DNA of 53,580 bases from a virus (lineage: Duplodnaviria; Caudoviricetes). The notes beneath the pieces are model-generated. The model saw only the letters and a list, made by a program, of their open reading frames with translations, had not been told where the DNA came from and did not search any database. The DNA lies in the IMG/VR virus record IMGVR_UViG_3300015360_000055, positions 1-53,580 of that record. The stretch is one strand, 5' to 3'. Every line of letters begins with the position of its first letter. Position 1 is the stretch's first letter. Positions 3,606 to 47,700 of this stretch are shown in pieces. A program made the position numbers and the translations under genes.

Positions 3606-3862
3606 CTCAGGTAATGTTCAAACAATATCAACGAGAGATGAGACTTCGGGCAATCAACCATTTCAAGATGTCCATGTGCGGACAAGTCTGGACTCAGGGC
3701 CAATTTGATCAGTACGTCGAGAGCCTCCGAGGGCTTAAGCTCGAAGATCACGAAGACTGCGATCACTGTGCAGGCAAAGGCAAGGTTGAAGACTCCACGG
3801 GATTATATCCGATGAGGTGTGGCTTTTGTTCGGGCACGGGCAGAGTCAAAACTGTTTCCTGA
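3590..3862 (+). CDS. protein with DnaJ-type CxxCxGxG zinc finger (start may be 3614)
   Basis: CDHCAGKG and CGFCSGTG repeats. Confidence 0.7.
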   Translation: MLKISSQVMFKQYQREMRLRAINHFKMSMCGQVWTQGQFDQYVESLRGLKLEDHEDCDHCAGKGKVEDSTGLYPMRCGFCSGTGRVKTVS

Positions 3863-3873
3863 AACCCGTAATA
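3858..3873 (+). repeat. dispersed motif copy 1, CCTGAAACCCGTAATA
   Basis: Read directly; contains the TGA stop of the zinc-finger gene and lies upstream of the tubulin gene. Confidence 0.9.
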
Positions 3874-3930
3874 TCCAAAAACTACTTTCTGTATTAGGCT
3901 TGGAGAACGTCAAACGTCTCTGAGCTTTTT

Positions 3931-3960
3931 TTGAATGACGTTTGGTGTTATCTGTAGAAT
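3931..3960 (+). promoter_or_regulatory. putative promoter for the tubulin/terminase block
   Basis: TTGAAT, 18 nt, TAGAAT; TCTGTARAAT recurs at 34307 and 50299. Confidence 0.4.
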
Positions 3961-4049
3961 GGAAGTAGGATACAATTTGTATGTCTCTTCCGTTGCGGTA
4001 TCAAATTTTGACTGCTGAGCAGTTCTATACGTTGGCTAAAGGAGAAGCT

Positions 4050-5183
4050 ATGGCGATTGATTTAGGGATTGATGAAGAAGTCGTTCTTCCACCAGAGTCC
4101 GTTACTGACGAAAAGAAAGTCGCAGTGAAGTTCGGGATCATCGGCGCAGGCCAAGGTGGGGGCCAGCTTGCTGACGCCTTCTGGCAGCTTGGATATCGCC
4201 GGGTCGCGGTGGTGAATACAACGACTCGGGACATGCAGCGTCTCCAGATCCCTGAAGCTAATCGTCACATTTTGAAGTCCGAAGGCGGCGCTGGGAAAGA
4301 TCCCGCTGTTGGAAAGAAGGCCGTCGAAGCCGAGACTGAAGAACTGATGCGACTCATCCAAGGTGCTTTCAAGAAAGACCTGGAGCACATTTTGATCTGC
4401 GTGGGTGCAGGTGGCGGCACCGGCTCCGGATCAGCTCTCCCTCTGATTAAGATCTGCAAAGAGTATTTGGTCTCCATCGGCGTTCAGAATCCTGAGAAGA
4501 AGGTCGGCGTGATCTGCACTCTACCCACTCGGGATGAGTCCTCGGCTGTCCAGCGCAACGCTCTTGAAACGATTCTCCCTCTTTGTGACCTGGCAGAAAA
4601 AGGTCAGCTCTCTCCTCTTGTGCTCGTGGACAACTCCCGCGTGCTCGCGATGTACGGCAAGGCATCGGTTGTGGATGTCTGGGGTAAGGCGAACAGAAAT
4701 ATTGCTTCACTCTTCAATGCCTTTAACGAATTGTGTGCTGCTGACGATGCGACCTGCCACGTTGTTTGCGATCCAAAGGACTATAAAACCGTACTTGAAG
4801 GCGGTATACTCGCATTTGGAAGGACCAAGCTTGAGAAGGTTGAAAAACCTACCGATGTTGCTGACGCCGTTCGCGATAACGTGAAGAAGGGTTTGCTCGT
4901 CGAGGGAATGGATCTTTCAAAAGCGAATGTCGGAGCAGGACTTCTGGTTTCAAACGGCGAAGGATTGGGAAGTGTCTCTCAGGAGTCTCTTGAGAATGCT
5001 TTCGGATCCTTGAACCGGTTGATGGCGCAAGGCCCTGAGACTAAACTTCACCGTGGAGTTTACGAAGCAGGAGCGGACGCTAAAGTTTATTTGTATACCA
5101 TTTTGGCCGGTATGGGACGCCCGTTGACACGGCTCCAGGAAATGCAATCAAAGGCTGGGGCTTCACACCCCATTGGAGGATAG
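4050..5183 (+). CDS. tubulin/FtsZ-superfamily GTPase (PhuZ/TubZ-like)
   Basis: GIIGAGQGG (T1 loop), GAGKDP, signature GGGTGSG, LVDN, DPKDY in the T7 position. ATG 4050 has SD AAAGGAG; the track start is 3981. Confidence 0.92.
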   Translation: MAIDLGIDEEVVLPPESVTDEKKVAVKFGIIGAGQGGGQLADAFWQLGYRRVAVVNTTTRDMQRLQIPEANRHILKSEGGAGKDPAVGKKAVEAETEELMRLIQGAFKKDLEHILICVGAGGGTGSGSALPLIKICKEYLVSIGVQNPEKKVGVICTLPTRDESSAVQRNALETILPLCDLAEKGQLSPLVLVDNSRVLAMYGKASVVDVWGKANRNIASLFNAFNELCAADDATCHVVCDPKDYKTVLEGGILAFGRTKLEKVEKPTDVADAVRDNVKKGLLVEGMDLSKANVGAGLLVSNGEGLGSVSQESLENAFGSLNRLMAQGPETKLHRGVYEAGADAKVYLYTILAGMGRPLTRLQEMQSKAGASHPIGG

Positions 5184-5532: not shown

Positions 5533-7629
5533 ATGCCGCTCATAGACGAGGGCGGACGATACAGGTCAGTAAGAACCGAAGATGAATACGCTGAGCTTTT
5601 CCTCCGGGAGATTGACCTCATCCCTCCCGAGGAAAGGCAATTTGCATTTGAAGTTCTCAACGATTTTCTTGTCCAGTCCAACAGTCCTGCCCTAGAAGTT
5701 TCATCTCAGAAACTGTACCGGACCCCACCAGTGAAGATGGAGGAGTTTCTAAAGAATCCCTTTTATCTAGGTGCGTTCCACAAGACGATCTTTGAAACGA
5801 TCAAAGAAGATCTGACCGAAGTATTCGAAGGCAGTTATGTGCAAGCCATCTGGGGTGGGTCACTGGGTGGGGGTAAATCAACGGCAGGCGTGATCTCGCT
5901 TGTCAGAATGGTTTACGAGGCGAGCTGCCTTCGAAATCCTCACGAGACCTACAGCATCTCATCTTCCGATTACATCATGTTCCCTGGAGTTTCATCGACC
6001 GAGGACATTGCCGAACGAAACATCTTGGATAAGGTTCGCTTCATCATCAACGACAGCGAATACTTTCAAACTTACTTCCGTCCCGAGAAAGACTCGATGG
6101 CGAAAGGTATTTTGTTTCCGAACAAGATTCTGATCCCCCCGGGAGCTTCGAACTCAGGACAGATCTTGGGCGGTAACGTCGCAGGACTCTTTATCGATGA
6201 AACCAACTTCTTTCAGAAAAGAAGTAACGGGCAAGTCAATCCACACGAGCAAAAAGAAAACGTGGAAGTCATTTACGAGACCATCGTTCGCCGAATGGAG
6301 TCTCGTTTCAAAAAGCTTGGGAGAATTCCAGGCATCATCGCTCTGGCTTCATCCAAGACCACTCCGAATGCTTTTACCGAACGAGTGATCTTAAAGTCGA
6401 TCAACAAGTCTAACGTCTTTGTCCGGGAGAGAAGTGTTTGGGAATCTCAAACCACCAACACGTTTTCCGGTAAAAGGTTTCGTGTTGCCATCGGGACTGA
6501 GACTCGGATGTCGAAATTCCTGGGTGACGAAGAGCCTGATCCAGAGGGAATGAAAGTCATCGATGTTCCGGAAGAGTTCCGAGAAGCATTCGAAGACGAC
6601 ATCGATGGATCCATTCGAGATCACGGCGGCTACGCGACCGTCTCCATCACTCCGTTCATCACGAGACGCGAGAAGATTTACGAATGCGTGGACAAGACTC
6701 GCACGCATCCATTCACTCAAGAAGTCTGGGAACAAAGCGTCCCAGGCAACATCCAGTGGGAAAAACTTTGTCGGTTGAAGTCGGATGGAACTTACGAGCC
6801 TCTTCATCATCCGTCAGCGCCGCGTCACGTTCATCTCGACTTGAGTAAGAATCAGGATAGAACCGGGCTCACAGTCTCGTGTATTGGTGGCTACGCTCCC
6901 GTGCAGCGGTGGGGGAAGACTGACATTGAGATGGCCCCTCACATTCATGTGGACTTCACCTTGGCGATCCAAGCCCCCCTCGGCGGTGAGATTATGTATG
7001 CTGAGATCCGAAAACTCATTTACGAATTCAGTCAGCATGGATTCTTCATCAAGGTGGTCACAGCCGATCAATACCAATCCTTGGCACTTCTCCAGGCCAT
7101 GCGTCAGCAGGGTTATAAGACGAAGATTGTTTCTGTCGAGCCCCCAGGTGGTCCTTACGAATCACTCAAGCAGGCGCTCTATGAGAATCGGCTTTCCATG
7201 TACAACTATCCTCCTCTGACGAAAGAATTGAGAGAGCTTCAGAAGAACTGGAAGACTGGGAAAGTCGATCACCCGGATTCGAGCCGAGGTGGTAGTAAAG
7301 ATATTGCGGATAGTTTAGCCGGGGTGATCGCCACTCTGACAGAATCCGCTTACGGAATTATGGATGCCCCCGTAACGAAGGGGATCTCAGAGATTGTCAT
7401 GCAAGATGACGATGCCTGGATCCTGGACGGAATGCTTTCGGTGGGCAACACGAGTGATCCTTCCATTCCTGAATGGCGTCAGAATGCGGAAGAGATCCTT
7501 CGCGAAGATGGACAAAACGTCAACTCTCACCCAGAGTGGAGACAGAATGCTGAGAAAGCTCTGGATCAAGAACAGGGTAACAATTATGATTGGAAAAAGA
7601 ATTTCCAAATGCCATTTGTGGTGGGTTGA
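5533..7629 (+). CDS. terL: terminase large subunit
   Basis: Walker A GSLGGGKST, Walker B LFIDE, coupling motif ASS, RNase H-like nuclease HLDLSKNQD, DQYQS, KVDHP...SKDIADS. Confidence 0.93.
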   Translation: MPLIDEGGRYRSVRTEDEYAELFLREIDLIPPEERQFAFEVLNDFLVQSNSPALEVSSQKLYRTPPVKMEEFLKNPFYLGAFHKTIFETIKEDLTEVFEGSYVQAIWGGSLGGGKSTAGVISLVRMVYEASCLRNPHETYSISSSDYIMFPGVSSTEDIAERNILDKVRFIINDSEYFQTYFRPEKDSMAKGILFPNKILIPPGASNSGQILGGNVAGLFIDETNFFQKRSNGQVNPHEQKENVEVIYETIVRRMESRFKKLGRIPGIIALASSKTTPNAFTERVILKSINKSNVFVRERSVWESQTTNTFSGKRFRVAIGTETRMSKFLGDEEPDPEGMKVIDVPEEFREAFEDDIDGSIRDHGGYATVSITPFITRREKIYECVDKTRTHPFTQEVWEQSVPGNIQWEKLCRLKSDGTYEPLHHPSAPRHVHLDLSKNQDRTGLTVSCIGGYAPVQRWGKTDIEMAPHIHVDFTLAIQAPLGGEIMYAEIRKLIYEFSQHGFFIKVVTADQYQSLALLQAMRQQGYKTKIVSVEPPGGPYESLKQALYENRLSMYNYPPLTKELRELQKNWKTGKVDHPDSSRGGSKDIADSLAGVIATLTESAYGIMDAPVTKGISEIVMQDDDAWILDGMLSVGNTSDPSIPEWRQNAEEILREDGQNVNSHPEWRQNAEKALDQEQGNNYDWKKNFQMPFVVG

Positions 7630-7634
7630 ATAAT

Positions 7635-12500: not shown

Positions 12501-14885
12501 CCAGGCAAGTTCGTTCGCTCAGGCGATACCGACACTGCCAAGAAGATCATGAAGCATCATGAAAGCATCAGTGAGAATAAGGGTGATGGCAAGCCACGCA
12601 TCATGACCACTTACGACATCGTCACCCCGGAGTCTGCTTCCCGTGGTGATGTTGCTGAGAACGGTTGGGAAGATGAGATCGGACACGACTGCACACCTGA
12701 CGAACATGATATCGAAGACGGAAAGACTGTTGTCGATTTAGCGGTCGAGTTTCTGAAAGATAAGGGCGTACTTGAGCCGTCATCAACTCAGTTTCATACC
12801 GGGATTTGGTATAACACCATAGATCCAGAAACTGATTACCAGGACGGTTCTGAAAAGAACTACGCCTATCATCTGTACGACTTTACTCCAGAGCAGGAGA
12901 AGCAAGTCTATGGTGGCGTCATGGGTAAAAAGGAAGCTAAAAATCCTGAAACCCGTAGCGGCGACCTCACCGAGAAGACGGGCGACGGCTACACCTTCAC
13001 GGATAAAGAATCTCAGATGGAATCTCTGGCGGAATACATTGACGAGCACGTCACGTTGGAGACTGAGTACAGAACTGAACACGAAGACTCCGGCAATGAT
13101 TATCTCGATGCCATGATGGATTCGGTAAATACCGAAGAATGTCTTGGTATGAACATGACCAATAACGTTCTTTGGGCACCGCTTGAAGCGGCTAAGGATG
13201 CTGGTATTCCAGTGAAGGAATTGGATCAGATTTTAAAAGATCTTGTCACTGCTAAAGCTTCTGGTGTTTTTTATCCAGACAACGCAGTCTCTTCCACTGG
13301 CCAGCTTGGAGAAGTTGAGACTCAGCTTGACAGCATGGGCGGGACCGTAAACGGTAAAAAGGTAGATGATGTTTTCGAGATTTTATCCGCTGGCCTTGAT
13401 GAGAAAGATAAGAAGGCTGTCGCACGGAAGCTTCAAGAGGCTTACTGGGATGGCAAATCAAATTACGCTTATGGCGACGCTGCCTACGACACTTGGATGT
13501 TCGTCGTTGATGAAGACGCTTTGATCGACGCCATTAATGAAAAACTGAAAGAAACTGGAAAGCCTGAACTTAATCTAGATGGTGAGACTGAAGAGTCCAC
13601 TCAGGTTGAGTCTGTCCAGAAGAAGTTGAAAGAGTCTCACTCTGACTCAGATCTCCAGGGCATGAGCGCATCTGCTTTGCTGAAGCTGATCCGCAGTAAG
13701 GAAGTCACTTACGCTGAAGTGGACAAGGCTCTTGAGAAGGAAAAAGACTTCCGGAAGCTTGACTGGATCGGTGACCAACTTGCGAAAGACGATCTGAAGA
13801 AGCCCGGCACTCCAGTTGATGAAGCCAGTGCAGAAAAAAACTTTGAAGTCTGGATTAAGACTCCAATGCCATCCACTACCGAAGTAGATGCAAAGTTTGC
13901 CACCAAGGCTGAAGCTGAAGCCCACATGGCCGAGCGGAAAGCTAAAAATCCTGATTGGAAAATCTGGATCGAAACAACTTCTGGACGAGCTAAGATGTCA
14001 AAGGCATTCCCAGAAGCTGGAGAGACGGACGACACCGGTCAGACAGAAGCTGCGCCAGTCGATCAAGAGCTTAAGAGCAGTGTTGAGACTTCGGTTGACC
14101 ATAAGAAATGGAAGGCTAAGCACAAGGCTCCAGTTCAAAAGGAATCGCTCGCAGTGGAGATCGACGGACAGAAGTTCGGCCTTACCACTGAAGAACTCAA
14201 CGAAGAAGGCATCGTTGCCGATCTCGCAGCGGCCATCGGTGGTTCGTCTGAGCCAGAGAAGCTCGAAGAACTCAAGACTGAGATCGCCGATTCCATGGAC
14301 ATGGACAGTGGTCGATACTCTTCATGGGGAAAGTCGGGAAGCTTTGAAGCTGATGGGACTGAGTACCAGTTCATCATCAGCGAAGACGAAGCCGAGAAGA
14401 TTGCCAAAGACATCGTCACTCAGGATCTTGAGGACGACCCATATGAGATGTTCAGTCATGACTTTTTGAATGAGCATCTTTATGTGGGTGACACTGACAA
14501 GCGTTTGATCGCAAACGACGATGCCGACGCACGCATGGACGGCATGAGCGATGAAGACATCATCGATGAAGTTGAAATGCAAGATGAGTACGAAGCTGCT
14601 GAGGGCAAAGCAAAGGAAAAAATCCTTGATAAAGCCAAAGAGCAGATCATGAGCACGCACTACGACTCAGTTTATGAGCAGCTCGACAAGGATCCAGTGG
14701 GATACTTTGAAGACATGGGCGGGGCCGAAATGGTCAAAGACATGATCGAGAAAAATCTTCTGAGTGTGGACGTGAAGGCAGCCGCAGAGGAAGCCGTCAG
14801 GATCGACGGTTGGGCGCACTTCTTGTCACACTATGACGGAAACTACGAAACCACTCCGGGTGGCGTTGTCTACTTCAAGGAGTAA
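9510..14885 (+). CDS. 1791-aa modular acidic protein, putative prohead-core/internal polyprotein
   Basis: Between portal and protease, where T4 has gp67/gp68; Arg-rich N-terminal segment; many small modules separated by [ILV]-x-E motifs. Confidence 0.7.
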   Translation: MTQMAGASILNLLLEDWITEVRVVRVKRVPARIRMKRKRYYRKRKARIKRMSRMRRRKPRAKRQAKRRAKIRKRMNIKPGSRRRIRMSSADRFGNLMEGKQVNETKDLIRGFENVSRLVDQLVGVLGKEKVNESLGKTNHSLVEDFYPAELPAFADHGDIILHEDFEAILGIKKPLQENKKPADYSQMKADAVAMIANIKSGKVDESEALQILTLMTEGLDKAVERVITESPELEESGETNGDDDSAQSSYEKLGLEPMMKKLAANPAQLIKKVADDDGDVEVKVMKVTHDSHKNMIGIHLYDPSEQEIDQAVNDAFRDGFEYVWVEYPAKMNNSVSEAKGSHKVGSKVKVNMGVDSGKTGVVVDKSAIKTNGRGTPEIEGHYKPMSTDDVAIKFDHNGKHAVYSKSHLTPVSDSKEEAISEAGKKGQKWHIIDWAGNSVFGGDTFDSFDDAEEFLSVKLGDDYETDRGEYDVVQGKTTDKKYLDPKDPRAGKKIKSEAEDEKVNVRELSPMVVQYLSTALWSSNDGSNEQGGDPLDDNYDISDIAEESVKKATEDCDSFYEKAEKILGKNGDEITAIESESLGHDFWLSRNGHGAGFFDADYLDEDMRDALQDLAKEFGEVNAYVADIGDEPGKIFIESFEADTEEDPLVEMARINKEALLNESKSEMVMKIKQMEADLHKAMHEKKISAPNGQEIPFKIMGHDEAETVKEKSGKVFDYPEMTHFNIESWETMKLSMTADGRIIPEGVALNGKGVPAEKIIADVLKNVKNWSAHVAKLKSEKATKKEAKQNEAKADDGAVEVAYDGTVDRGEGKEHVAVIRKGDKIIDRIHGKTKEAAISAAQEAAKTPKAESAPVTEMARQTTDVVAAAFVAGEPKKDKNNHTDGKSFFLHGNEIAKIEKGQLSITNAGWETTTTRERLNGIMVAAGVGKKVSQEKGKQMLDGKEWDGEWTKVGKVKPPTPPTPDKPVKEAVADPKSVKGKDMTPANKAEMGKSLPGKFVRSGDTDTAKKIMKHHESISENKGDGKPRIMTTYDIVTPESASRGDVAENGWEDEIGHDCTPDEHDIEDGKTVVDLAVEFLKDKGVLEPSSTQFHTGIWYNTIDPETDYQDGSEKNYAYHLYDFTPEQEKQVYGGVMGKKEAKNPETRSGDLTEKTGDGYTFTDKESQMESLAEYIDEHVTLETEYRTEHEDSGNDYLDAMMDSVNTEECLGMNMTNNVLWAPLEAAKDAGIPVKELDQILKDLVTAKASGVFYPDNAVSSTGQLGEVETQLDSMGGTVNGKKVDDVFEILSAGLDEKDKKAVARKLQEAYWDGKSNYAYGDAAYDTWMFVVDEDALIDAINEKLKETGKPELNLDGETEESTQVESVQKKLKESHSDSDLQGMSASALLKLIRSKEVTYAEVDKALEKEKDFRKLDWIGDQLAKDDLKKPGTPVDEASAEKNFEVWIKTPMPSTTEVDAKFATKAEAEAHMAERKAKNPDWKIWIETTSGRAKMSKAFPEAGETDDTGQTEAAPVDQELKSSVETSVDHKKWKAKHKAPVQKESLAVEIDGQKFGLTTEELNEEGIVADLAAAIGGSSEPEKLEELKTEIADSMDMDSGRYSSWGKSGSFEADGTEYQFIISEDEAEKIAKDIVTQDLEDDPYEMFSHDFLNEHLYVGDTDKRLIANDDADARMDGMSDEDIIDEVEMQDEYEAAEGKAKEKILDKAKEQIMSTHYDSVYEQLDKDPVGYFEDMGGAEMVKDMIEKNLLSVDVKAAAEEAVRIDGWAHFLSHYDGNYETTPGGVVYFKE
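12945..12957 (+). repeat. dispersed motif copy 2, CCTGAAACCCGTA
   Basis: Read directly; inside the 1791-aa CDS, in a linker. Confidence 0.85.
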
Positions 14886-21247: not shown

Positions 21248-23615
21248 AATCATCGGTAAAGAGATCTGCGTAGCGGCTGCATTCTACGGAGAAGTCTCCG
21301 AAAAGAAGATGGGTTACGGGTTTCAGGAAAGCCTACTCGTGGATCCCATCGTCTTGGATTTGAATTCTGTCACCATGGACATGCTCAAAGATTGCGTGAA
21401 GCAGCTCGAAGCGATGGGCACCTACGAAGAGCTTGCCAAGGCTCAGGGCTACAAGAACGAAGGCTACAAGGCGACCGGGTTGGTCATTCAATCCAAGCTC
21501 GACCCGCGCGTGGTAATGTCAGTTGAGTGTGGACGCCGATGGAACAAAGACTCCGACGCTCAGTGGGTTTCTACAGGAGAAAGCGACCTCACCCTCAAGT
21601 GGTATCTCAACGACGAAGCCAAGGATCAGCAGGGCGTCAAGGGCGTTCAACCTGAGCACGCTGCTGACGCCGCAGAACTCGATCTCATCACGAAGATCCG
21701 CGAAGCCACCAAACAAGTTCCGATGAAGACTGAAAGCTACCAGCCTGTGATGAACGCCATCAAGATGGGCTACGGAACTCTCGCTGAAGCTGAACTCTCT
21801 CCTGAGTCTCTTCTTGAGGAATCTAAAAAAGAATCCAAGAAAGAGAAAAAGGAAGACGACAAGGTCGTCCGCTCTGGCACTTACAAAGGTAAGAAGTGGC
21901 AGATCGTTCAAACCAATTCTGGTTCAATGGGCAGCCCGGTCGATTACAAGTTAGTTGTTCCAGGCGTGTTCAGCTCGGATCATTTTAAGTCGCTCGCAAA
22001 GTGGAGCACTGACCGTGAAATCAAGCAGGCCAAGTCCTTCATTGATGATGCTGCCAAGGATTCAAAGGGCTCTAAGGGCTCCAAGAAAGAAAAGAAAAAG
22101 GTTACTGAAGCTGAAGAAGGTCAGACCCCGATTCAGCGTGAAGTCACTATTGAACTGACCCTGAAAGAAGCGGCTGAAGCTTTGGGCTACGGTGACTGGG
22201 CGAAGGAAAACGACTATCTTGACGCCGATCCTCATGAAGATGTTCATCACAGTGGTTACTCAGCTAAAGATGCTGCCAACTGGAATGACCCCAAGGGTAT
22301 GGATGGGGCAACCAGTATCTTCCCAGAAGCTGTAGTTAGGGCAGTCGAAGATGCTGAGCGCGATGGATGGGCTGCTGCAATCGGAGAAGCTCGCCGTGAC
22401 GCGATCAAAGATGCTCTCGAACTGATCCAGGTCGCAGGAGAATATCAAAGCGGCGATGGTGACATGATCGGCGTGAAGTCGGCTGGTGTGAAATCGGCTG
22501 AGATCGACACCCCTGCCAACAAGGTCACCGTCATGATTGAGAATCCAGAGCACCTGATTAACGATCTCATGGCCGGTCTGGGCCAGTTTTCTCCAGAGAT
22601 GGATCCGTACACCGCTGAAGATGACGACAAGATTAAGCGTATGTTCATTCAGTACGCTGGTGGCTACTTCGATATTTACGGAGACCGTAAACCCAGTGGC
22701 GAACTCGGCAGTCAGTTCTCTCCAGACACTAACGATGACTTCATGGCTGAGCAATGCAAAGTTTATATCGATGAAATGAGCGTTGATGAAATCGCGGAAG
22801 CCATTGCTGATGCCGTTGATTCGGGTCGGGTGGATTCAGAGGCTGAGGCCATCACGATGGCCGTCAAGCTCAGCGGTGAAAACAAGAAGGCAATCGCTCA
22901 GGCGCTGAAGAAGATGCACGGCGACACCTCTAAAAAATACGCAGACCGTGCAGCAGGAATTCCGGAAGAGGAATCTGTGAATCGAGTCGGCAAGAAGCCA
23001 GCGGCAGATGCCGCAAACAAACCAGCTAAAGCGGAGGTCAATATGAAAGAAGGAATTGATTTTGTATCGGTAGATTTTTGGGGAATGCCAAATCTCTCTG
23101 AGGAAGTCCAAGTGGGCGATCAACAGAAGAAAGCCACCAGCCCAGACGTTGTCTCGGTCGCTCAGAAGGACAAAGAAGTCGATAAGATGGCCGCCAATCT
23201 CAAGACCCCAAGCGGCAAGCAAGTCGTGATGAAGGCTGGTGCTGCTCTCGCTAAACCATCCACCACGGTTGATGTCGGCGTGAAGTCAGGCGAAGCCGCT
23301 CTCCCAGACGCAGCTCTCAAGACCGGCGATGCTGAAGACGGCAAGGGCGATGAGATGATTGGCAAGGGTAACTCCGATGACCAACAGAAGGAGCTTCCTT
23401 CGATCGCTATCAAGACCGGCAAAGCTGCTGATGGTCGCGGTAAAGTCATGGCTGACTCCAAGACTCCCTCCAAGGCTACGATGTCTGAAGCTCGCAAGGC
23501 TCAGGTTCAAGAGTTGATGGCCAAGCAGAAAAAAGACGGATCCATGGCCAAGAAGATGGGCGAAGCTCGCAAGAAAAAGATGCAGGAGAAGATGAAGTCT
23601 CGTTATGGGAAATAA
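21231..23615 (+). CDS. 794-aa modular protein, second putative processed internal protein
   Basis: Globular blocks separated by charged linkers with KTE-S, LAE-A, LEE-S, VTE-A, MKE-G, LSE-E, MSE-A. Confidence 0.65.
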   Translation: MNDQNKIIGKEICVAAAFYGEVSEKKMGYGFQESLLVDPIVLDLNSVTMDMLKDCVKQLEAMGTYEELAKAQGYKNEGYKATGLVIQSKLDPRVVMSVECGRRWNKDSDAQWVSTGESDLTLKWYLNDEAKDQQGVKGVQPEHAADAAELDLITKIREATKQVPMKTESYQPVMNAIKMGYGTLAEAELSPESLLEESKKESKKEKKEDDKVVRSGTYKGKKWQIVQTNSGSMGSPVDYKLVVPGVFSSDHFKSLAKWSTDREIKQAKSFIDDAAKDSKGSKGSKKEKKKVTEAEEGQTPIQREVTIELTLKEAAEALGYGDWAKENDYLDADPHEDVHHSGYSAKDAANWNDPKGMDGATSIFPEAVVRAVEDAERDGWAAAIGEARRDAIKDALELIQVAGEYQSGDGDMIGVKSAGVKSAEIDTPANKVTVMIENPEHLINDLMAGLGQFSPEMDPYTAEDDDKIKRMFIQYAGGYFDIYGDRKPSGELGSQFSPDTNDDFMAEQCKVYIDEMSVDEIAEAIADAVDSGRVDSEAEAITMAVKLSGENKKAIAQALKKMHGDTSKKYADRAAGIPEEESVNRVGKKPAADAANKPAKAEVNMKEGIDFVSVDFWGMPNLSEEVQVGDQQKKATSPDVVSVAQKDKEVDKMAANLKTPSGKQVVMKAGAALAKPSTTVDVGVKSGEAALPDAALKTGDAEDGKGDEMIGKGNSDDQQKELPSIAIKTGKAADGRGKVMADSKTPSKATMSEARKAQVQELMAKQKKDGSMAKKMGEARKKKMQEKMKSRYGK
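21314..21330 (-). repeat. dispersed motif copy 3, TTTCCTGAAACCCGTAA
   Basis: Reverse complement read directly; 17/17 identical to copy 1 with its flank; inside a CDS. Confidence 0.9.
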
Positions 23616-25001: not shown

Positions 25002-25016
25002 ATTACGGGTTTCAGG
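25002..25016 (-). repeat. dispersed motif copy 4, CCTGAAACCCGTAAT
   Basis: Intergenic; can pair with the degenerate CTGAGCCCG at 25023-25031, with a T-rich tract downstream. Confidence 0.9.
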
Positions 25017-34989: not shown

Positions 34990-35303
34990 TGGCTCGCGTA
35001 AACATCACCCGCTCGTCATGGCTTAATCTTTCCAAACTCCTTGATTTCAATGGAACCGTTTTTTGGGACAGCACAGAATTCCCAGAAATTCCGTTTTCCA
35101 CGCTCGATACCTATATTCAACTCACAGATGTTCAAGCTCAGCGAATCGATCAGGTCGCTTTCGAGCAGTACGGCGATTCAAACTATATGTGGGTTCTCAT
35201 GTTGGCTAATGACAAAGAATTGCCGAACGGTTTTGTCGGTGGAGAAACGATTCGTGTTCCAACGAAGGCCACGATTGATTTGATTCTGAAACCGAAAACC
35301 TGA
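34989..35303 (+). CDS. LysM-like baseplate protein (gp53/tail X-like)
   Basis: RIDQVAFEQYGDSNYMWVLMLAN...GETIRVP. Confidence 0.8.
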   Translation: MARVNITRSSWLNLSKLLDFNGTVFWDSTEFPEIPFSTLDTYIQLTDVQAQRIDQVAFEQYGDSNYMWVLMLANDKELPNGFVGGETIRVPTKATIDLILKPKT

Positions 35304-35314
35304 AACCCGTAATA
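35299..35314 (+). repeat. dispersed motif copy 5, CCTGAAACCCGTAATA
   Basis: 16/16 identical to copy 1; again contains the TGA stop of the upstream gene. Confidence 0.9.
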
Positions 35315-38486: not shown

Positions 38487-38488
38487 TC

Positions 38489-40879: not shown

Positions 40880-41421
40880 TGGCTCTTCTGGGTCCAACAG
40901 TACTTGCAGCGCAGATCCTTGCCCTGCCTCCTGCGATGGATCCATTGACTGGCGGAATGAACTTTGCCGGTGTAATCGCAGATTATATGAGTTTAATTCA
41001 GGGCGGACCCACTGGTTCTCCAGGAATTATCACGTTTAACAAAGCGGTTTTTGGCCCACTGGTGGCTGCAATGCCTCCGGATCCGACCGGAGCCGCATGG
41101 GGAGTATTGATGGCGGCGAATTGGCAGACTGCTCTGCTCGCAAGCATCGTCACCCCTGGAACGGTTGCTGATCCAACCTGGACAGTCTCAGCCGTAGACA
41201 TCCTTACCCTGCCCACCGCAGCGGCTACCGTGATCACCGCGCCAGTTGCCATGGCCACTCTTGCCGGTAAGCTCGCAAGTGTGAAGGCTGGTGCAGACGC
41301 ACCAAAGCCAATGGCAGAAGCCTTTCATGAGGCCATTCTAAAGATGCAATTTCTTTGCATTGGAATGACGCTGGTGGGGATCGTACCCACGCCAACTCCA
41401 CTTCCGAAGACGGCACAATAA
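40879..41421 (+). CDS. hypothetical spike-associated protein
   Basis: 180 aa, A/P/G-rich and hydrophobic; coupled to the spike gene. Confidence 0.65.
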   Translation: MALLGPTVLAAQILALPPAMDPLTGGMNFAGVIADYMSLIQGGPTGSPGIITFNKAVFGPLVAAMPPDPTGAAWGVLMAANWQTALLASIVTPGTVADPTWTVSAVDILTLPTAAATVITAPVAMATLAGKLASVKAGADAPKPMAEAFHEAILKMQFLCIGMTLVGIVPTPTPLPKTAQ

Positions 41422-41873
41422 TGGCGAAACTCGTAATCACCACGACTGGAAAAATCGGGAAGAGGGTCGTATTCACTTCGGTTCAGAAAATTCCAATCCC
41501 TGAGCTTCCGATCATTCCACCGATCGCTATCCCTGCTCTTCCAAAGATTCCCAAGCTTCCGTCTCTCCCGGCGCTTCCTAGTCTTCCAGGAATCAGTTTG
41601 AAGGTTCCATCACTTGCACTTCCGGTCATACCGCCTATCTCGCTTCCAGCACTTCCAAAGGTTCCGAAGCTACCGACGCTTCCAAAGCTTCCCACTCTTC
41701 CTGGGATTAGTCTCAAGGTTCCGTCACTCGCCCTTCCGGTGATTCCGCCTATTGCTCTTCCAGCTCTCCCGAAAATTCCAAGTCTTCCCACTCTTCCAAA
41801 GTTACCCAGTCTCAGCATTCCGTCTCTCGGTGGAGTCTCTCCTACAATTACGGTTAGCACATCTGTTGAGTGA
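41421..41873 (+). CDS. proline-rich repeat protein
   Basis: TAATG coupling at 41421; about three 38-aa repeats (114-bp period) of P-x-L triplets. Confidence 0.75.
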   Translation: MAKLVITTTGKIGKRVVFTSVQKIPIPELPIIPPIAIPALPKIPKLPSLPALPSLPGISLKVPSLALPVIPPISLPALPKVPKLPTLPKLPTLPGISLKVPSLALPVIPPIALPALPKIPSLPTLPKLPSLSIPSLGGVSPTITVSTSVE

Positions 41874-44310: not shown

Positions 44311-44324
44311 TCGGAGTCATAAAG

Positions 44325-44768
44325 ATGCTTGAGACTAAATACTTTAGCTGGACATACCCTGAAGAAAATGACGACCCTCATTTTGAAACCCTTGAGGGCT
44401 TTTTCCAACAGCAAGACGACACGACGTTCGGGTTGATGAATACGGCCTGTAACATCATCATTCCTCCGACCTCTGTTGTTTGGAATGGCGGAACCAAGAC
44501 TTTGACATGGAATGACGATTTTGAGATTCCATTAATGCAAGCTGGGTTCAGCTTGAAGATTAAATACGGTCCAGATGGACTTACTCGGTCAGCAACCTTT
44601 AGTGATGGTGACCGAATGATTGTATCTGTCCCAAGGACATCAAGCGGAGAGGTGACGGCAAATTTTGCGCTAGTGAACGGTTCCACTTCAATTAACAGCG
44701 GTCTTTTTACCGTTGGGTTTTGTCGAGGATCTCTCTTTTACGCAAACCTTCCTCAAGTGTTCACTTAA
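44325..44768 (+). CDS. hypothetical baseplate-region protein
   Basis: GGAG SD; beta-rich 147 aa. Confidence 0.7.
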   Translation: MLETKYFSWTYPEENDDPHFETLEGFFQQQDDTTFGLMNTACNIIIPPTSVVWNGGTKTLTWNDDFEIPLMQAGFSLKIKYGPDGLTRSATFSDGDRMIVSVPRTSSGEVTANFALVNGSTSINSGLFTVGFCRGSLFYANLPQVFT

Positions 44769-44779
44769 AGGGGACTTAA

Positions 44780-47700
44780 ATGGCAGGTTTCGGTAGATCA
44801 CCTTTTGGAAGGGGACCGTTCGGGAGATCAGACACTGGTCATGATCTCGTCGTTCGCTCGTTTCCAGTTGAGTACTTCGATGACTCAATCGTACTGGACA
44901 TAGGTGAAACCCCCGCCAACAATGACAAGGACCCCCTTCTTAAGCTGATCAAGACTTACGCTCATCAGGTCTTCAAGCGCAGACTTGACATCGACAGGAT
45001 CCCGAACCTTCTTGATTTTGAAACCATGCCCCTGGAGATCGTCAGGCTCTGGGGTGACATGCTTGGCCTGGGGATCGATAAGAACGATCCTGAATTTCTT
45101 CAGCGTTCATTTCTTGGAAACGCAAGCCAGTGGCTTCAGATCAAAGCTTCTACTCGCGGTTACGAAGTCCGAGGATTGGCATCCGGATTCGACGTTTCAG
45201 TTGAAAACTTTTGGCGTATCGATGAAATCTACGCTCCGCTTATCCCTGCTCGATTCAAGTATTTACTGAAGCCAAGAGACGCGGATGAATCAGCGTTAAA
45301 AAAACTTCATACCGACTCTCCCCCTGGAACTCACCCAGGAACACCAACTTCTGAAGACTCGACTTATGCAAAGTCATCATACGTTCGTATTGTTTTCTCT
45401 GTTCATGAGCCAAGAAACAACAGCGTTAATTACAACACTCTCTTAGATCTGGTCATCGATAAAATCCGGGACGTTGTCGGCATCCATCACGAGATGCAGG
45501 CTCCTCAGTTCCTGGTCAAGATCCCAGTTGATGAAACTACCATTACCGTAACCATGCTCATCGAAGAGTTTGGTGTCTTCAATGGTAGTGAAACCTATAT
45601 TTACGACATCACTCCTGCGGACGAAATCCCAACCGACACTGGCATCTATTTGACGATGACTACTGGCGACGGTAACGTACTCACCATCGATACAGACATC
45701 GGAGTCACCGGAGAGATCACTGAGTTTGAATACGACCTCATTCTGAATGTTGCTCCGTACATGTCTGTGGAATACCAACTTGAGTCCGAGTGGGCACTCT
45801 CCGTAGACGAAGCAATCAGCATCGACTGGACCACTTCTTACGATGGGTTTGATGTTCAGGTTCCAATCAGTGTTGATTTCCTCATTGAAGCTTTTGAAAA
45901 TTACACTCCTTACGAAATCGAAGTAAATGCATCGATTGGATACCAATCGAACGAAATCGACAATGACATCCCAGTTGAGGCAGCCGATCACTACGATCTG
46001 ACTCCTGGCGATCTGGTCATCATCGACAGTCAGAGCGTTACGATTCAGATTTACGACATCACGCCAGTTGAAATCAACATGTCGATCCCTGTTGACCCAG
46101 AAGCAGACATGGGTTCGAGCGGATCTCATGAAAGCATTACCTTCATTATCGATCCTGCGATTGCTGCGATCAGAGAGATTGATGAAGAGTCTTACAGCGA
46201 AGTGGACGCCCTACCCACTGCAACCTTTCAGCTTGGCGTAACTCACAGCGATATTGAACTTTTTGTTGATGGATCAAACACAACAGTTGAGTTTATCGAG
46301 CAAGAAGAGCCATTCACCGTTGTGACTGAAATCACCAGCGTCATCTCTGCAAGCTCCGAAGAGATCGCCCTGGACTTCCCGGTCTCTGGATCCGCTGACA
46401 TTGTCTCCGAGCAAAGTCCTGCGCTCATTGAAATCACAGTCGGAGAGTTCGCATCGATTGAAAATCAAGAGTCAATCAACACAGGCGACTCACTCAGCAT
46501 TACCACGGCAGTTGAATCAATCTACGAGTCGGCTGAGCCAGTGGTCATGGTTGGCGAAACGATCGACTTAATCACTGATTCAGACGTGATTGAACTCTTC
46601 GTCTCGGCCAGCGCATCTCCTTTGATCGACACTCAGGAATCTCTCAATGACTCCGTAGAGACATCAATCGACACTGTTTATGAGATTGAGCAAGAAGTCG
46701 ATTACATCGTCCTTGACGCTCCACTTCAGATTCAAGTTATCCTGGTCTCTGACTCCAATCAGATGAGCATCAACGTGAACGAATCCTTCACCCTTGAGGT
46801 GAATGAATCTTCTACGACCGAGGCCGATGAGACCGTTACGGCAACCCTCACCCAGGCCCAGGAGTCTGAGGGAATCAACTTTGAAGTATCCGTTCCGCTC
46901 TCGGTTGAACTCGTCACCGAAGTCGATCAGTTCATTGTGTCGGTCGGTGAAACAGCTTCACTTGAGATCGCAGAGATGGCCTCGGGGGATATCTCCGAAC
47001 CCATCACGGTGTCGCAATTTATCGAGAATGAGGTCGAAACCCTTCTCTTTGACATCAATGTCAATGTAACCGCAGATCTCAGCTTCCTGACCGCTTTTGA
47101 GGTCACGGTCGGCGAGACGGTTGATTACGGGTTTCAGGAAGTTTTATCCTCTCACATATCTGAAACGGTCAGTGCTGAACAATTTGTTGAGCAGGAATCC
47201 GGAAGCATCTTCTTCAGCATCTCCGCAAATATTACCGCTGAGATCGACATCTCTACCGCACTTTCGGTCCCAGTGGGTGAGACGGTATCGATTGAATCAA
47301 GCGAGCATTCGAACGCCAGTATCGAAGAACTTGTTACGGTCACTCAGGTTGTCGGACAAGAGATCGAGACCCTCCTGTTTGAGGTTACCGTCAACGTTAC
47401 GGCGTCAATTGAGTTCGCGGTTGTTATGCCGGTGGATGCTGCCGGATCCACTTCGATTGACTCTAGTGAGTCGCTCGAATCATCCATTGAAGAGTCGATC
47501 ACTGTTTCCCAGTTCATCGAAGATGAGACAGAAACGCTCCTCTTCAATATTAACGTCAGCATCTCGGCATCCATTGATTTTGCCACGGCGATGTCTGTAT
47601 CGGCTGGCCCTGAAGCATTGTTCCAGTCTTCTGAACAAAGTGAAGTCGAGTCCTCAGTCTCCGCTTCAACCAGCATGTCTCGTGTGGATGAGATCTGGAA

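What the first reader, a model, noticed from the sequence alone, without database searches (positions are those of the whole stretch)
3858..47140. Non-palindromic 13-17 bp DNA motif scattered six times along the genome
Seen: CCTGAAACCCGTA core at 3858(+), 12945(+), 21315(-), 25004(-), 35299(+) and 47126(-); consensus wwwCCTGAAACCCGTAAt; gaps of about 9, 8, 4, 10 and 12 kb. Three copies are inside CDSs, two contain a stop codon and one is intergenic. A given 13-mer is expected about 0.002 times in this window on both strands. Mixed orientation and intragenic copies argue against a promoter or a protein-level repeat. Inference: a DNA-level protein-binding site, such as a dispersed centromere (parS/tubC-like), a Ter/Chi-like site, or a packaging or ejection signal.
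Basis: partly seen in the sequence, partly recalled or inferred. Interest (0 to 1): 0.85.

Follow-up and report, generated by a model that had tools for sequence, protein, structure and literature searches.

The report
Evenly spaced DNA recognition sites in phage
A 13-base DNA word repeated about every 9 kb in this large uncultured phage is real, is kept letter-perfect in related phages, and is most likely the landing site of a phage DNA-binding protein rather than a promoter or a chance repeat.

Summary
In detail: CCTGAAACCCGTA occurs 6 times, always exact, 3 per strand. The window is a fragment (about 36%) of a roughly 150-kb T4-like myovirus from microbial mats.

The same 13-mer occurs 9 more times, exact, in 4 related contigs.

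A complete relative (G001) instead has 11 copies of a co-varied 28-bp dyad. A further relative (G006) has 13 copies of an unrelated palindrome. Two distant relatives have 13 and 18 copies of a third palindrome.

Copies sit at the same genomic slots in different lineages although the sequence differs. They are enriched at gene junctions. They take either orientation, even at the same slot. In the close lineages they are spaced more evenly than chance (Fisher P 8e-5).

Best reading: a binding site of about 17 bp for a phage-encoded double-strand DNA-binding protein. The best candidate is the single winged-helix (HTH_36) initiator-like protein heading the DnaB/DnaG module. Its gene is flanked by a copy in 5 of 5 genomes that hold it. 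The function (origin-like, enhancer-like or roadblock) is inferred, not shown.

The tests run spoke against promoter, nick-site, Chi, REP and centromere readings.

The parts
3858..3870 (+). Motif copy 1 (core CCTGAAACCCGTA). It lies 110 nt upstream of the tubZ-like gene 3981-5183. Its TGA is the stop of the doubtful ORF 3590-3862.
12945..12957 (+). Motif copy 2, in frame (N-P-E-T-R) inside the 1791-aa ORF 9510-14885. The same word in the same frame sits in the G002 orthologue, in a stretch that otherwise does not align.
21315..21327 (-). Motif copy 3, 84 nt inside the longest ORF 21231-23615 and possibly intergenic. It is antisense to the genes.
25004..25016 (-). Motif copy 4, intergenic between genes 24609-24995 and 25067-25327. 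The same slot and orientation hold in G003 (10533) and G001 (9772).
35299..35311 (+). Motif copy 5. Its TGA is the stop of the gp53-like gene 34989-35303, and it lies 18 nt before the baseplate gene 35330-36049. G003 (20950) has the same slot in sense orientation; G001 (1494) has it in the opposite orientation.
47126..47138 (-). Motif copy 6, antisense, deep inside the 1626-aa ORF 44780-49660.

Best explanation
The 13-mer is the invariant core of an asymmetric site of about 17 bp (WWW-CCTGAAACCCGTA-A). I read it as double-stranded DNA bound by a highly sequence-specific protein that the phage itself encodes.

The phage keeps about one site per 9-13 kb, at conserved genomic slots. Sites are squeezed into the short gaps between genes where possible and written into tolerant parts of very long genes where not. 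Orientation does not matter.

When the reader protein changes specificity, all sites change together. That would explain why relatives carry a co-varied dyad (G001) or unrelated palindromes (G006, G011, G012) at the same slots.

The most likely reader is the phage's single HTH_36 winged-helix protein ('X'). It is replication-initiator-like and heads the DnaB-helicase/DnaG-primase module. It evolves fast, and its gene is directly flanked by one site in every genome where it is seen. X lies outside this window.

I infer that the sites act as dispersed initiator-binding or loading points, meaning origin-like or enhancer-like elements comparable in logic to baculovirus hr elements.

Shown here: reality of the motif, its conservation, slot synteny, junction bias, orientation independence, even spacing, and adjacency to X.

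Inferred: that a protein binds it, that the protein is X, and what binding does.
For: 1. Exactness and conservation. There are 6 of 6 exact copies in the window and none with 1-2 mismatches. There are 9 further exact copies in 4 related contigs totalling 119,457 bases (G005 4, G003 2, G002 2, G004 1). The three of these contigs that align to the window (G002-G004) are only about 66-69% identical to it in the alignable DNA; G005 does not overlap it. At two shared slots the motif block is identical between G000 and G003 while the flanks carry substitutions and indels.

2. Concerted change between lineages.
- G001 (complete, 149,291 bp): 0 copies of the 13-mer, but 11 copies of TACG-N3-GCC-N8-GGC-N3-CGTA whose 3' arm is CCTGGC[AG][CG][CG]CGTA.
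- G006: 13 copies of CCAATCAATTGG.
- G011 and G012: 13 and 18 copies of GCAAR-NN-YTTGC, against 0 and 2 for a control pattern.

3. Same slots with different sequences.
- G001 125107 = G004 5990 = G006 61040, with both flanking genes homologous.
- G001 102679 = G005 15815 = G006 46247.
- G000 35299 = G003 20950 = G001 1494.
- G000 25004 = G003 10533 = G001 9772.
- For 4 of 6 window copies a G001 copy lies within 1 kb of the orthologous landmark (P 0.0055).

4. Junction bias. Copies touching non-coding DNA: G001 9 of 11 (P 1.2e-7), G006 6 of 13 (6e-4), G000 3 of 6 (0.0075), G005 3 of 4 (0.009), G011 6 of 13 (0.009), G012 9 of 18 (0.005).

5. Orientation is free. The window has 3 copies per strand although the genes are almost all on the + strand (47 of 50 gene calls). 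G001 has 6 antisense, 3 sense and 2 at convergent junctions. Orientation flips at the baseplate slot between G000/G003 and G001.

6. Even spacing. The CV of the gaps has P 0.022 (G000), 0.0015 (G001), 0.067 (G006) and 0.042 (G005); Fisher P 8e-5. The deep coding copies fall in the longest genes. In one helicase family the copies of G005, G006 and G012 lie in the same gene family but in different alignment columns. This points to a need for a site in that region rather than to an inherited site.

7. Candidate reader X.
- There is exactly one HTH_36 gene per genome in G001, G005 and G011, and two (X plus a short paralogue) in G006.
- X is followed by a DnaB-like helicase (86 bits) and a Toprim primase.
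- Its PHROG matches are almost all to replication-initiation families (E 1e-5 to 1e-7).
- X is only 16-30% identical between lineages, while most structural proteins are 40-80% identical.
- A site lies 1 nt (G005), 16 nt (G001), 4 nt (G011) and about 6 nt (G012, one mismatch) after the X stop, and just upstream of the paralogue-X pair in G006.
Against: - No binding experiment and no protein-DNA model exists. X is not in the window, and only one X of the window's own motif type (G005) is known.
- The recognition helices of G011 and G012 X differ at several positions although their motifs belong to one family.
- Adjacency of X to a site could be one more inherited slot rather than a functional link.
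- The flanks are not AT-rich (z from -0.5 to 2.4), and sites are single, not iterated. Both are unlike classical origins.
- Even spacing is not significant in G011 (P 0.12) or G012 (P 0.42), and G001 has one 25.7-kb gap.
- Dyads and palindromes that abut ribosome-binding sites would also suit an RNA-level or transcriptional role.
Confidence: 0.35

Rival explanations
1. The sites are operators or roadblocks of a global phage transcription regulator. Known examples are stoperators of Cluster A mycobacteriophages, and (recalled) P1 C1 operators, phiC31 conserved inverted repeats and RK2 KorB sites. Binding would silence or partition the long co-directional operons.
For: The site is an asymmetric 13-mer placed in short intergenic gaps and over stop codons, like the L5 sites described in passages of PMC9283540. 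Junction enrichment is strong. Several copies lie at convergent junctions next to a canonical terminator (G001 37132), at G001 72890, and at G006 121362 and 132036. Lineage-specific consensus is typical of immunity systems. X is a winged-helix protein that by sequence could equally be a regulator; its best solved-structure matches are transcription regulators, with E 0.003 or worse.
Against: Stoperators work in one orientation relative to transcription (PMC9283540 passages). Here orientation is mixed and flips at one slot. No integrase was found in 5 of 5 records searched, with the control ringing in 14 of 14 genomes. No repressor was identified. Even spacing and copies deep inside 5-kb genes are not expected of operators.
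Confidence: 0.22
2. The sites are recognition sequences of a phage site-specific nickase, giving localized single-strand interruptions in virion DNA as in T5, phiKMV-like phages and phage tf.
For: Those systems have about 4-14 dispersed, near-invariant short motifs. The motif differs between related phages while positions stay similar, and the authors propose co-evolution of nickase and sites (PMC3517423 passages). The all-or-none pattern here fits an enzyme: 6 exact copies and 0 with 1-2 mismatches. Near-matches are depleted in G000 (2 against 12.8 expected, P 0.017) and G005 (3 against 10, P 0.043).
Against: In all described cases every site lies on one strand (PMC3517423). Here the split is 3 and 3. 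The G001, G006, G011 and G012 versions are dyads or palindromes, which a dimeric nuclease would cut on both strands. Near-match depletion is absent in G002-G004. No nick data could be had, because only assembled contigs were available.
Confidence: 0.12
3. The sites form a dispersed centromere, or loading sites for the phage's TubZ-like tubulin or ParB-like proteins, serving genome positioning or segregation.
For: Gene 3981-5183 is TubZ-like: PF00091 at 55 bits, and the best solved relative is RepX/TubZ 4ei7 at E 6.5e-12. It is conserved in G001 and G006. A site lies within 1 kb upstream of it in G000, G001 and G006. ParB_N proteins occur in G001 (2), G005 and G006, one of them with an HTH insert. 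Near-exact dispersed sites are typical of ParB and KorB systems (recalled).
Against: Known tubC and parC centromeres are tandem iterons next to the partition operon, and parS is a 16-bp palindrome (recalled). The window's site is single and asymmetric with no second half-site. No TubR was identified; the profile match of X to TubR has E 0.36, which is not significant. G002 keeps motif copies while its tubZ slot holds a DUF4160/BrnA pair and an unknown gene. The ParB_N orthologues lack an HTH.
Confidence: 0.08
4. The motif is read by a host protein, such as a host transcription factor, a Chi-like signal or a nucleoid protein. Lineages would then differ because their hosts differ.
For: GC content differs between the lineages (0.46-0.50, 0.55, 0.40, 0.57), which suggests different hosts. 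Host CtrA sites conserved in phage intergenic regions are a precedent (PMC9437464; title and start of abstract only).
Against: In the listed part of a truncated scan of IMG/VR for the 14-mer, the only contigs with more than one copy belong to this phage clade: 2 contigs among the 80 stretches listed of at least 117 found. Binding motifs of one host factor are usually conserved across related hosts, whereas here they are unrelated. The site is far longer than any Chi (recalled). Motif similarity tracks phage relatedness: G000 and G001 have MCP 80% identical and related motifs. The host genome could not be scanned.
Confidence: 0.08
5. The sites are promoters of a phage-specific RNA polymerase or sigma factor. 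The G001 variant CCTGGCACCCGTAA shares 11 consecutive bases with the promoter of cyanophage Syn5 RNA polymerase.
For: The Syn5 promoter as printed in PMC3950665 contains GGCACCCGTAA. The window motif shares ACCCGTAA with it and has an A/T-rich 5' flank. No T4-type TATAAATA late promoter is present in G000, where 0 copies were found. Copies 3858 and 35299 lie just upstream of genes.
Against: Half of the window's copies, and 6 of the 9 assignable G001 copies, point against all neighbouring genes. No PF00940 polymerase was found in 4 of 4 records, including complete G001; however, the control rang in no genome, so this is weak. Of the 33 G001 ORFs of 330 aa or more, I scanned 10, among them the five longest outside the structural modules; none was polymerase-like, but 2 of the 10 (a 912-aa and a 455-aa ORF) matched no family at all.
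Confidence: 0.04
6. The element acts in RNA (a processing, stability or translational operator site), or it is a selfish REP-like mini-repeat.
For: The G001 dyad abuts the ribosome-binding site of the next gene in 6 copies, and the GGAG of the G006 palindrome serves as that site in at least 5 copies (read by eye). Imperfect palindromes in intergenic gaps resemble REP elements.
Against: The window motif is asymmetric and sits on both strands. RNA folds of the 6 copies are not unusually stable, with z from -2.5 to +1.2. The variable triplets of the two G001 arms are not complementary. Rfam gave 0 matches. No Y1/RAYT transposase was found in 5 of 5 records, with the control ringing in 6 genomes. 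The copies do not decay as selfish repeats would.
Confidence: 0.05

Closest known systems
Stoperators/operators of mycobacteriophage L5 and other Cluster A phages (passages of PMC9283540)
   Same: A 13-bp asymmetric, near-invariant site present many times across the genome. It is placed in short intergenic gaps, is bound by a phage protein with a helix-turn-helix domain, and has a consensus that differs between related phages.
   Different: Stoperators keep one orientation relative to transcription; these sites do not. Here density is about one per 9-13 kb, spacing is even, relatives use dyads or palindromes, and no integrase or immunity repressor was found.
Localized nick motifs of T5, phiKMV-like phages and phage tf (passages of PMC3517423)
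   Same: A handful to 14 dispersed copies of a short, almost invariant word. The word differs between relatives while positions are similar, and the function is unknown.
   Different: All known nick motifs lie on one strand only. Here both strands carry them, and sister lineages use symmetric sites. The presence of nicks could not be tested.
Baculovirus homologous regions (hrs) (abstract of PMC4535591; other details recalled)
   Same: Repeats containing imperfect palindromes are interspersed around a large dsDNA virus genome. They act as both origins and enhancers. Binding by a viral activator and lineage-specific sequence are recalled, not checked.
   Different: Each hr is a cluster of several repeat units of about 64 bp, whereas these are single sites of 13-28 bp. 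The viruses and hosts are unrelated, so this is an analogy of logic only.
TubZRC tubC and ParB-parS / KorB-OB sites (recalled, not checked in a paper)
   Same: They are protein-binding DNA words of 12-16 bp with very little variation. A tubZ-like gene and ParB_N genes are present in this clade.
   Different: tubC is a tandem iteron array beside tubR-tubZ, and parS and OB are palindromes. The window's site is single, asymmetric and dispersed. G002 keeps sites without tubZ in its slot.
Promoter of cyanophage Syn5 single-subunit RNA polymerase (passages of PMC3950665)
   Same: It shares 8 bases (window motif) or 11 bases (G001 variant) at the 3' end, and it is a short, high-information motif.
   Different: No such polymerase was detected, and the copies are not co-oriented with the genes.
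Initiator-binding sites of lambdoid and SPP1-type replication modules (recalled)
   Same: A winged-helix initiator-like gene sits directly upstream of helicase and primase genes, with a binding-site-like element at the initiator gene.
   Different: Classical origins have several clustered sites plus an AT-rich stretch at one or two places. Here single sites lie at 11-13 places without AT-rich flanks.

Membership tests
Cluster A mycobacteriophage stoperators | Asymmetric site of about 13 bp repeated many times, mostly in short intergenic gaps | tested here: met
   The 13-mer core has no second half-site. Among the 15 copies of the window's motif type, 9 touch non-coding DNA (G000 3/6, G002 0/2, G003 2/2, G004 1/1, G005 3/4).
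Cluster A mycobacteriophage stoperators | Orientation of sites correlates with the direction of transcription | tested here: not met
   The window has 3 sense and 3 antisense copies. G001 has 3 sense, 6 antisense and 2 ambiguous. Orientation flips at the baseplate slot.
Cluster A mycobacteriophage stoperators | Cognate immunity repressor and temperate lifestyle | tested here: inconclusive
   No PF00589 integrase in 5 of 5 records. The HTH_36 protein X is a candidate binder, but it is not shown to be a repressor.
Localized nick sites (T5 / phiKMV / tf type) | All sites on one DNA strand | tested here: not met
   3 copies on each strand in the window, and 8 + against 3 - in G001.
Localized nick sites (T5 / phiKMV / tf type) | Physical, ligatable nick at the motif in virion DNA | not testable with these tools
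   Only assembled contigs of 4 DNA runs were available.
tubC / parC-type centromere | Tandem array of iterons directly beside the partition operon | tested here: not met
   A single copy lies 110 nt upstream of the tubZ-like gene. No repeated unit was found in 3300-4100. The other copies are 9-43 kb away.
tubC / parC-type centromere | Cognate adaptor (TubR or an RHH ParR) encoded with the motor | tested here: inconclusive
   The small neighbours of tubZ gave no DNA-binding family above cut-off. The RHH-like gene 34801-34989 has the same strand residues in all lineages.
ParB-parS | 16-bp palindromic site | tested here: not met
   The window's site is asymmetric, with no inverted partner at any spacing from 0 to 25 nt. 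The sister lineages do use dyads.
T7/Syn5-type single-subunit RNA polymerase promoter | Cognate PF00940 polymerase encoded by the phage | tested here: inconclusive
   0 of 4 records matched, but the control rang in no genome. Of the 10 G001 ORFs scanned (out of 33 of 330 aa or more), none was polymerase-like and 2 matched no family.
T7/Syn5-type single-subunit RNA polymerase promoter | All copies co-oriented with the genes they drive | tested here: not met
   as above.
REP elements / RAYT | Imperfect palindromes mobilised by a Y1 (RAYT) transposase, in many decaying copies | tested here: not met
   No PF01797 in 5 of 5 records, with the control ringing in 6 genomes. Copies are exact and do not decay. 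The window's motif is not a palindrome.
Chi-type recombination hotspot | 5-8-nt word with strand bias relative to the DNA ends (recalled definition) | tested here: not met
   The site has 13 invariant bases plus flanks and shows no strand pattern along the genome.
Classical replication origin (initiator iterons plus AT-rich unwinding element) | Clustered initiator sites and an AT-rich flank | tested here: not met
   Sites are single. Flank AT content is not raised consistently (z from -0.5 to 2.4).
Classical replication origin (initiator iterons plus AT-rich unwinding element) | Site adjacent to the initiator gene | tested here: met
   A copy lies within 20 nt of the stop of the HTH_36 gene in G005, G001, G011 and G012 (one mismatch in G012), and just upstream of the paralogue-X pair in G006.

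The most novel reading that the evidence does not exclude
Large T4-like phages of this clade carry a genome-wide, evenly spaced set of single binding sites for their own replication-initiator-like winged-helix protein. This would be a phage counterpart of baculovirus hr elements. The sites would act as multiple origins or loading points (and perhaps enhancers). Their positions are conserved over long evolutionary distances, while their sequence is rewritten in concert whenever the initiator changes specificity.
Probability: 0.22. Interest if true: 0.8.

Novelty: new variant of a known kind. Interest (0 to 1): 0.66.

Why it matters
Dispersed, near-invariant DNA words are known in a few phage groups, as stoperators and as nick motifs. 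In those groups they are strand- or direction-bound, and for nicks the function is still unexplained.

This system differs in four ways:
- the slots are conserved across phages whose DnaB-like helicases are only about 31% identical;
- the word itself is replaced wholesale between lineages;
- orientation is irrelevant;
- in the closer lineages, spacing is kept even, to the point of writing the word into coding sequence.

That combination points to a genome-architecture requirement (replication, organisation or silencing) not yet described for tailed phages.

It also gives a testable pairing: three or four orthogonal site-and-protein candidates. If the pairing is confirmed, they could serve as orthogonal DNA-binding parts.

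The finding also flags an uncultured clade of T4-like phages with a TubZ-like tubulin that has no detectable relative in 50,697 deposited phage records.

Tried and rejected
**Tests that argued against a reading**
- Promoter reading: no PF00940 polymerase (the control was silent, so this is weak). Of the 10 G001 ORFs scanned, 8 were helicases with inteins, glycosyltransferases, a NUDIX/GNAT protein, an HNH-repeat protein and the HTH protein X, and 2 matched no family. TATAAATA occurs 0 times in G000 and 2 times in G001. Upstream k-mers gave no other candidate late promoter.
- RNA reading: Rfam gave 0 matches. Fold z-scores of the 6 copies on both strands were between -2.5 and +1.2, and only 2 of 12 were below -2.
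- Second half-site or direct repeat next to the window's motif: none at spacings 0-25 on either side.
- AT-rich flanks: not consistent.
- RHH protein 34801-34989 as reader: rejected, because its strand residues R-N-W are the same in all four lineage representatives.
- Iterons upstream of tubZ: none found.
- RAYT transposase: none. Integrase: none.

**Tests that gave no usable answer**
- Near-match depletion is seen in G000 and G005 but not in G002-G004, so I do not lean on it.
- Sequencing runs: no RNA holder was listed. Laying contigs of 4 DNA runs on 20001-40000 showed contigs bridging the copies. Among the 40 listed differences none lay in a motif (77 more were not shown). There is no information on molecule ends.
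- Complex prediction of the TubZ-like protein with X gave no verdict.
- The profile search of X against solved structures gave only weak generic winged-helix matches, best E 0.003. The Atlas gave only unnamed viral HTH_36 clusters and a poor model.

**Searches for relatives and for the host**
- The metagenome scan with the capsid alignment gave only 2 short loci.
- The genome scan gave 1 weak 41-residue match in a MAG. The host therefore stays unknown and its genome could not be scanned for the motif.

**Literature**
- No paper holding any of four motif strings in a relevant context: the 5 hits were primers or unrelated work.
- A generic search for dispersed palindromes in phage genomes gave nothing matching.
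- These two searches are the whole basis for saying the motif is not in print. Supplementary files were not consulted.

**Tool availability**

Full report
**What the window is.**
The window is itself a whole IMG/VR virus record of 53,580 bases, estimated at 36% of a genome. Its long ORFs are almost all on the + strand.

It encodes a portal (7590-9458), a prohead protease (15644-17437), a major capsid protein (17463-18974), a tail sheath (29835-31679) and a baseplate wedge protein (42343-44310). PHROG E-values run from 2e-29 to 4e-65.

The capsid protein is at most about 35% identical to any of 50,697 deposited phages. The nearest are Bacillus SP-15, Listeria LIS04 and T4-like cyanophages. The window is therefore a fragment of an uncultured, distantly T4-like myovirus of about 150 kb.

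The same DNA is held by contigs of DNA runs labelled microbial mat metagenome. Four runs hold half or more of the sampled words and a fifth holds a small share. One of them may be the source.

**The observation.**
CCTGAAACCCGTA occurs six times, at 3858+, 12945+, 21315-, 25004-, 35299+ and 47126-. Allowing two mismatches adds nothing. 0 of 100 shuffles reach six even at that tolerance.

It is the only strongly repeated 11-13-mer in the window. Flanks of 45 nt show no wider shared element.

Pooled with nine copies from relatives, the site reads WWW-CCTGAAACCCGTA-A-(T/C). There is no inverted or direct partner at spacings 0-25 on either side.

**Relatives with the same word.**
A capsid-based search found a complete 149,291-base relative with terminal repeats (G001; capsid 80% identical) and a 22.7-kb fragment (G002).

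Among the listed rows, the only contigs with two copies were G003 and G005.

Searching five records gave exact copies in four: G005 4, G003 2, G002 2 and G004 1. G002 also has one copy with one mismatch. G001 has none.

These contigs belong to the same clade. G002-G004 align to the window at 66-69% nucleotide identity. G005 covers another part of the genome and aligns to G001 and G004.

Where G000 and G003 share a slot, the motif block is identical while the flanks differ and carry indels.

The coding copy at 12945 reads N-P-E-T-R. The orthologous giant protein of G002 carries the same word in the same frame. It sits in a region where the proteins otherwise do not align. This argues for selection on the DNA word.

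**Relatives with a different word at the same places.**
- **G001** has 17 matches to the skeleton CCTG-N5-CGTA, against 3 for the reversed control. Eleven of them form one family, CCTGGC[AG][CG][CG]CGTA. With flanks, this is a 28-bp dyad, TACG-N3-GCC-N8-GGC-N3-CGTA. Each arm resembles the window's word. The variable triplets of the two arms are mostly G-rich on the same strand and not complementary (read by eye), so it is not a simple hairpin under covariation.
- **G006** (134,619 bases, 90% complete, capsid 69% identical) has no match to the skeleton. It has 13 copies of CCAATCAATTGG, mostly inside TCCAAT-CA-ATTGGA.
- **G011 and G012** are two more distant phages, found through the DnaB-like helicase at about 31% identity. 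They have 13 and 18 copies of GCAAR-NN-YTTGC, against 0 and 2 for a control pattern. This is the same 5-2-5 architecture as in G006.

Clustering the proteins that flank the copies shows shared slots:
- the tail-tube-region junction, with both flanking genes homologous: G001 125107 = G004 5990 = G006 61040;
- the junction beside the HTH_36 gene: G001 102679 = G005 15815 = G006 46247 = G011 66242;
- the baseplate junction: G000 35299 = G003 20950 = G001 1494, with G011 117015 next to the same gene;
- the junction at G000 25004 = G003 10533 = G001 9772.

For 4 of 6 window copies, a G001 copy lies within 1 kb of the orthologous landmark (P 0.0055). I placed the fourth, copy 21315, by eye, because it has no measured distance; with three the figure is P 0.045.

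In one helicase family, the copies of G005, G006 (in a paralogue) and G012 lie inside the gene but in different alignment columns. What is conserved there is the region, not the nucleotide position.

**Where the copies sit.**
With my own codon-model gene calls, copies touching non-coding DNA are:

| Genome | Copies touching non-coding DNA | Random expectation | P |
|---|---|---|---|
| G001 | 9 of 11 | 0.11 | 1.2e-7 |
| G006 | 6 of 13 | - | 6e-4 |
| G000 | 3 of 6 | - | 0.0075 |
| G003 | 2 of 2 | - | - |
| G005 | 3 of 4 | - | 0.009 |
| G011 | 6 of 13 | - | 0.009 |
| G012 | 9 of 18 | - | 0.005 |
| G002 | 0 of 2 | - | - |

Many of the 'inside' calls in G006, G011 and G012 are within about 50-150 nt of a predicted start or end.

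The gaps are so short that the element fills them. In six G001 copies the dyad runs from 2 nt after a stop codon to the AGGAG of the next gene. In at least five G006 copies the GGAG of the palindrome is the ribosome-binding site (read by eye).

This could mean a role in expression. It is equally what one expects when any long exact word must be fitted into a genome that is 90-93% coding.

The clearly coding copies of the window lie in its two longest genes.

At G001 37132 the dyad sits beside a separate, canonical bidirectional terminator. The window also has an ordinary strong terminator after the capsid gene. The element is therefore not itself the terminator.

**Orientation.**
The window has three copies per strand although its genes run one way.

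Of the 15 copies of the window's motif type, about 11 are sense and 4 antisense. In G001, 6 are antisense, 3 sense and 2 at convergent junctions.

At the baseplate slot, G000 and G003 are sense while G001 is antisense.

This argues against promoters, directional terminators, stoperator-type blocks, RNA signals and polar fork barriers for the asymmetric form.

**Spacing.**
Gaps are more even than random placement. The coefficient of variation and its P are 0.32 (P 0.022) in G000, 0.36 (P 0.0015) in G001, 0.62 (P 0.067) in G006 and 0.18 (P 0.042) in G005. Fisher's combined P is 8e-5.

The two distant genomes were scanned with a looser pattern and do not show this (P 0.12 and 0.42). G001 also has one 25.7-kb gap, counted across the ends of the record.

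**A candidate reader.**
The slot shared by all lineages lies beside a winged-helix gene that I call X.
- X has 339-461 aa. Its HTH_36 scores are 32-45 bits, above the cut-off of 25.
- HTH_36 occurs once per genome in G001, G005 and G011. It occurs twice in G006, as X plus a 120-aa paralogue.
- X is followed by a small paralogue of its C-terminal domain, then a 224-aa ORF, a DnaB-like helicase and a Toprim/DnaG-like primase.
- Its PHROG matches are almost all to replication-initiation, O-like or DnaD-like families, through the winged helix only (E 1e-5 to 1e-7).
- A motif copy lies 1, 16, 4 and about 6 nt after the X stop in G005, G001, G011 and G012 (one mismatch in G012). In G006 it lies just upstream of the paralogue-X pair.
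- X is only 16-30% identical between lineages, where most structural proteins are 40-80% identical. Its putative recognition helix differs between lineages.

Weak points:
- G011 and G012 share a motif family, yet their helices differ at several positions.
- Only one X of the window's motif type is known.
- The adjacency may be inherited synteny.
It cannot explain the different words.

**Other candidate systems.**
- Gene 3981-5183 is a TubZ-like tubulin. It is conserved in G001 and G006, and a site lies within 1 kb upstream in all three. However, no iterons and no TubR were found.
- G002 keeps motif copies while the tubZ slot holds a DUF4160/BrnA pair and an unknown gene.
- ParB_N proteins occur in G001, G005 and G006. 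The shared orthologue lacks an HTH.
- No integrase, no RAYT and no T7-type polymerase were detected.
- The G001 variant shares 11 bases with the Syn5 promoter printed in PMC3950665. I regard this as unexplained and probably coincidental, given the orientation data.

**Comparison with what is known.**
- Passages of PMC9283540 describe L5 stoperators: more than twenty asymmetric 13-mers in promoters and short intergenic gaps, whose orientation tracks transcription and is required for function.
- Passages of PMC3517423 describe nick motifs of tf, phiKMV-like phages and T5. They are near-invariant and dispersed, their positions are similar among relatives, and the word differs between relatives. 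They are always on one strand, and their function is unknown.
- The abstract of PMC4535591 describes baculovirus hrs, which contain an imperfect palindrome and act as both origin and enhancer.

The present system shares features with each and fails a defining feature of the first two (see Membership tests). P1 C1 operators, phiC31 conserved inverted repeats and RK2 KorB sites are further analogues that I only recall.

I found no paper mentioning these words in context. A general search found no description of such a system in T4-like phages.

**Verdict.**
The finding is real and not ordinary. The most economical reading is a set of binding sites for a phage-encoded, co-evolving, highly specific dsDNA-binding protein. 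These sites are needed at roughly regular intervals irrespective of orientation, and X is the leading but unproven candidate.

What binding achieves is open: multiple origins or loading points, enhancer-like action, silencing, or genome organisation.

I put 0.35 on the initiator-linked version, 0.22 on a global transcription regulator and 0.12 on nick sites. The remaining rivals get 0.08, 0.08, 0.05 and 0.04, which leaves about 0.06 for readings not listed.

Noticed in passing
window 3981-5183 (+): This is a TubZ-like tubulin/FtsZ-family gene: PF00091 at 55 bits, and the best solved relative is RepX/TubZ 4ei7 at E 6.5e-12. It lies next to the presumed terminase and the portal. It is conserved in G001 and G006 but gives no tblastn match at E<=1e-3 in 50,697 deposited phage records. 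In G002 the same slot holds other genes.
   Followed up: partly
window 9510-14885 (+): A 1791-aa ORF with an Arg/Lys-rich N-terminus conserved in G002 (62% over 321 aa), a Kyano_Gp96 domain at residues 883-942, and a long middle part that does not align with relatives. In G001 the region is two genes.
   Followed up: partly
window 41505-41812: A tandem repeat of period 114 (2.7 copies, 75% matches) built from 9-nt CTTCC-type sub-units. It is covered by mirror ORFs on both strands (41355-41873 + and 41483-41860 -).
   Followed up: no
window 34801-34989 (+): A small RHH-like gene (RHH_3, E 0.0034, below cut-off) sits inside the baseplate module. It is conserved, with identical predicted DNA-reading residues, in G001, G003 and G006. 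Its target is unknown.
   Followed up: partly
window 18997-19024 (+): A strong canonical intrinsic terminator (12-bp stem, 8 GC pairs, T7 run) lies right after the major capsid gene. This shows that ordinary host-type termination signals are used and are distinct from the motif.
   Followed up: no
G001 (L173, L140:11885-14287, L141:4807-7941): Three helicase genes of the complete relative carry Hint/intein insertions; two of these also hold LAGLIDADG homing-endonuclease domains.
   Followed up: no
G001, L140:6889-7758 (-): A homologue of the CBASS inhibitor Acb3 (PF25187, E 1.1e-38) lies directly downstream of the ParB_N gene.
   Followed up: no
G001 copies at 9772, 27576 and 91868: The variant CCTGGCACCCGTAA shares 11 consecutive bases with the promoter of cyanophage Syn5 RNA polymerase as printed in PMC3950665. 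No such polymerase was detected in G001.
   Followed up: partly
G012, about 34.8-56.6 kb: A second, regional motif (GGAAAACTCT and longer forms) occurs 14 times at spacings of about 1-3 kb. It is confined to one 22-kb region and may mark early promoters.
   Followed up: no
G011 33.6-54.4 kb and G012 108-133 kb: Many copies of tRNA T-arm-like 11-13-mers (GGTTCGAATCC type) suggest large tRNA gene arrays. This was not checked with ARAGORN.
   Followed up: no
G002, L144:4481-4982 (-): A DUF4160 gene plus a BrnA-antitoxin-like gene, a toxin-antitoxin-like pair, occupy the slot where G000 has tubZ.
   Followed up: no
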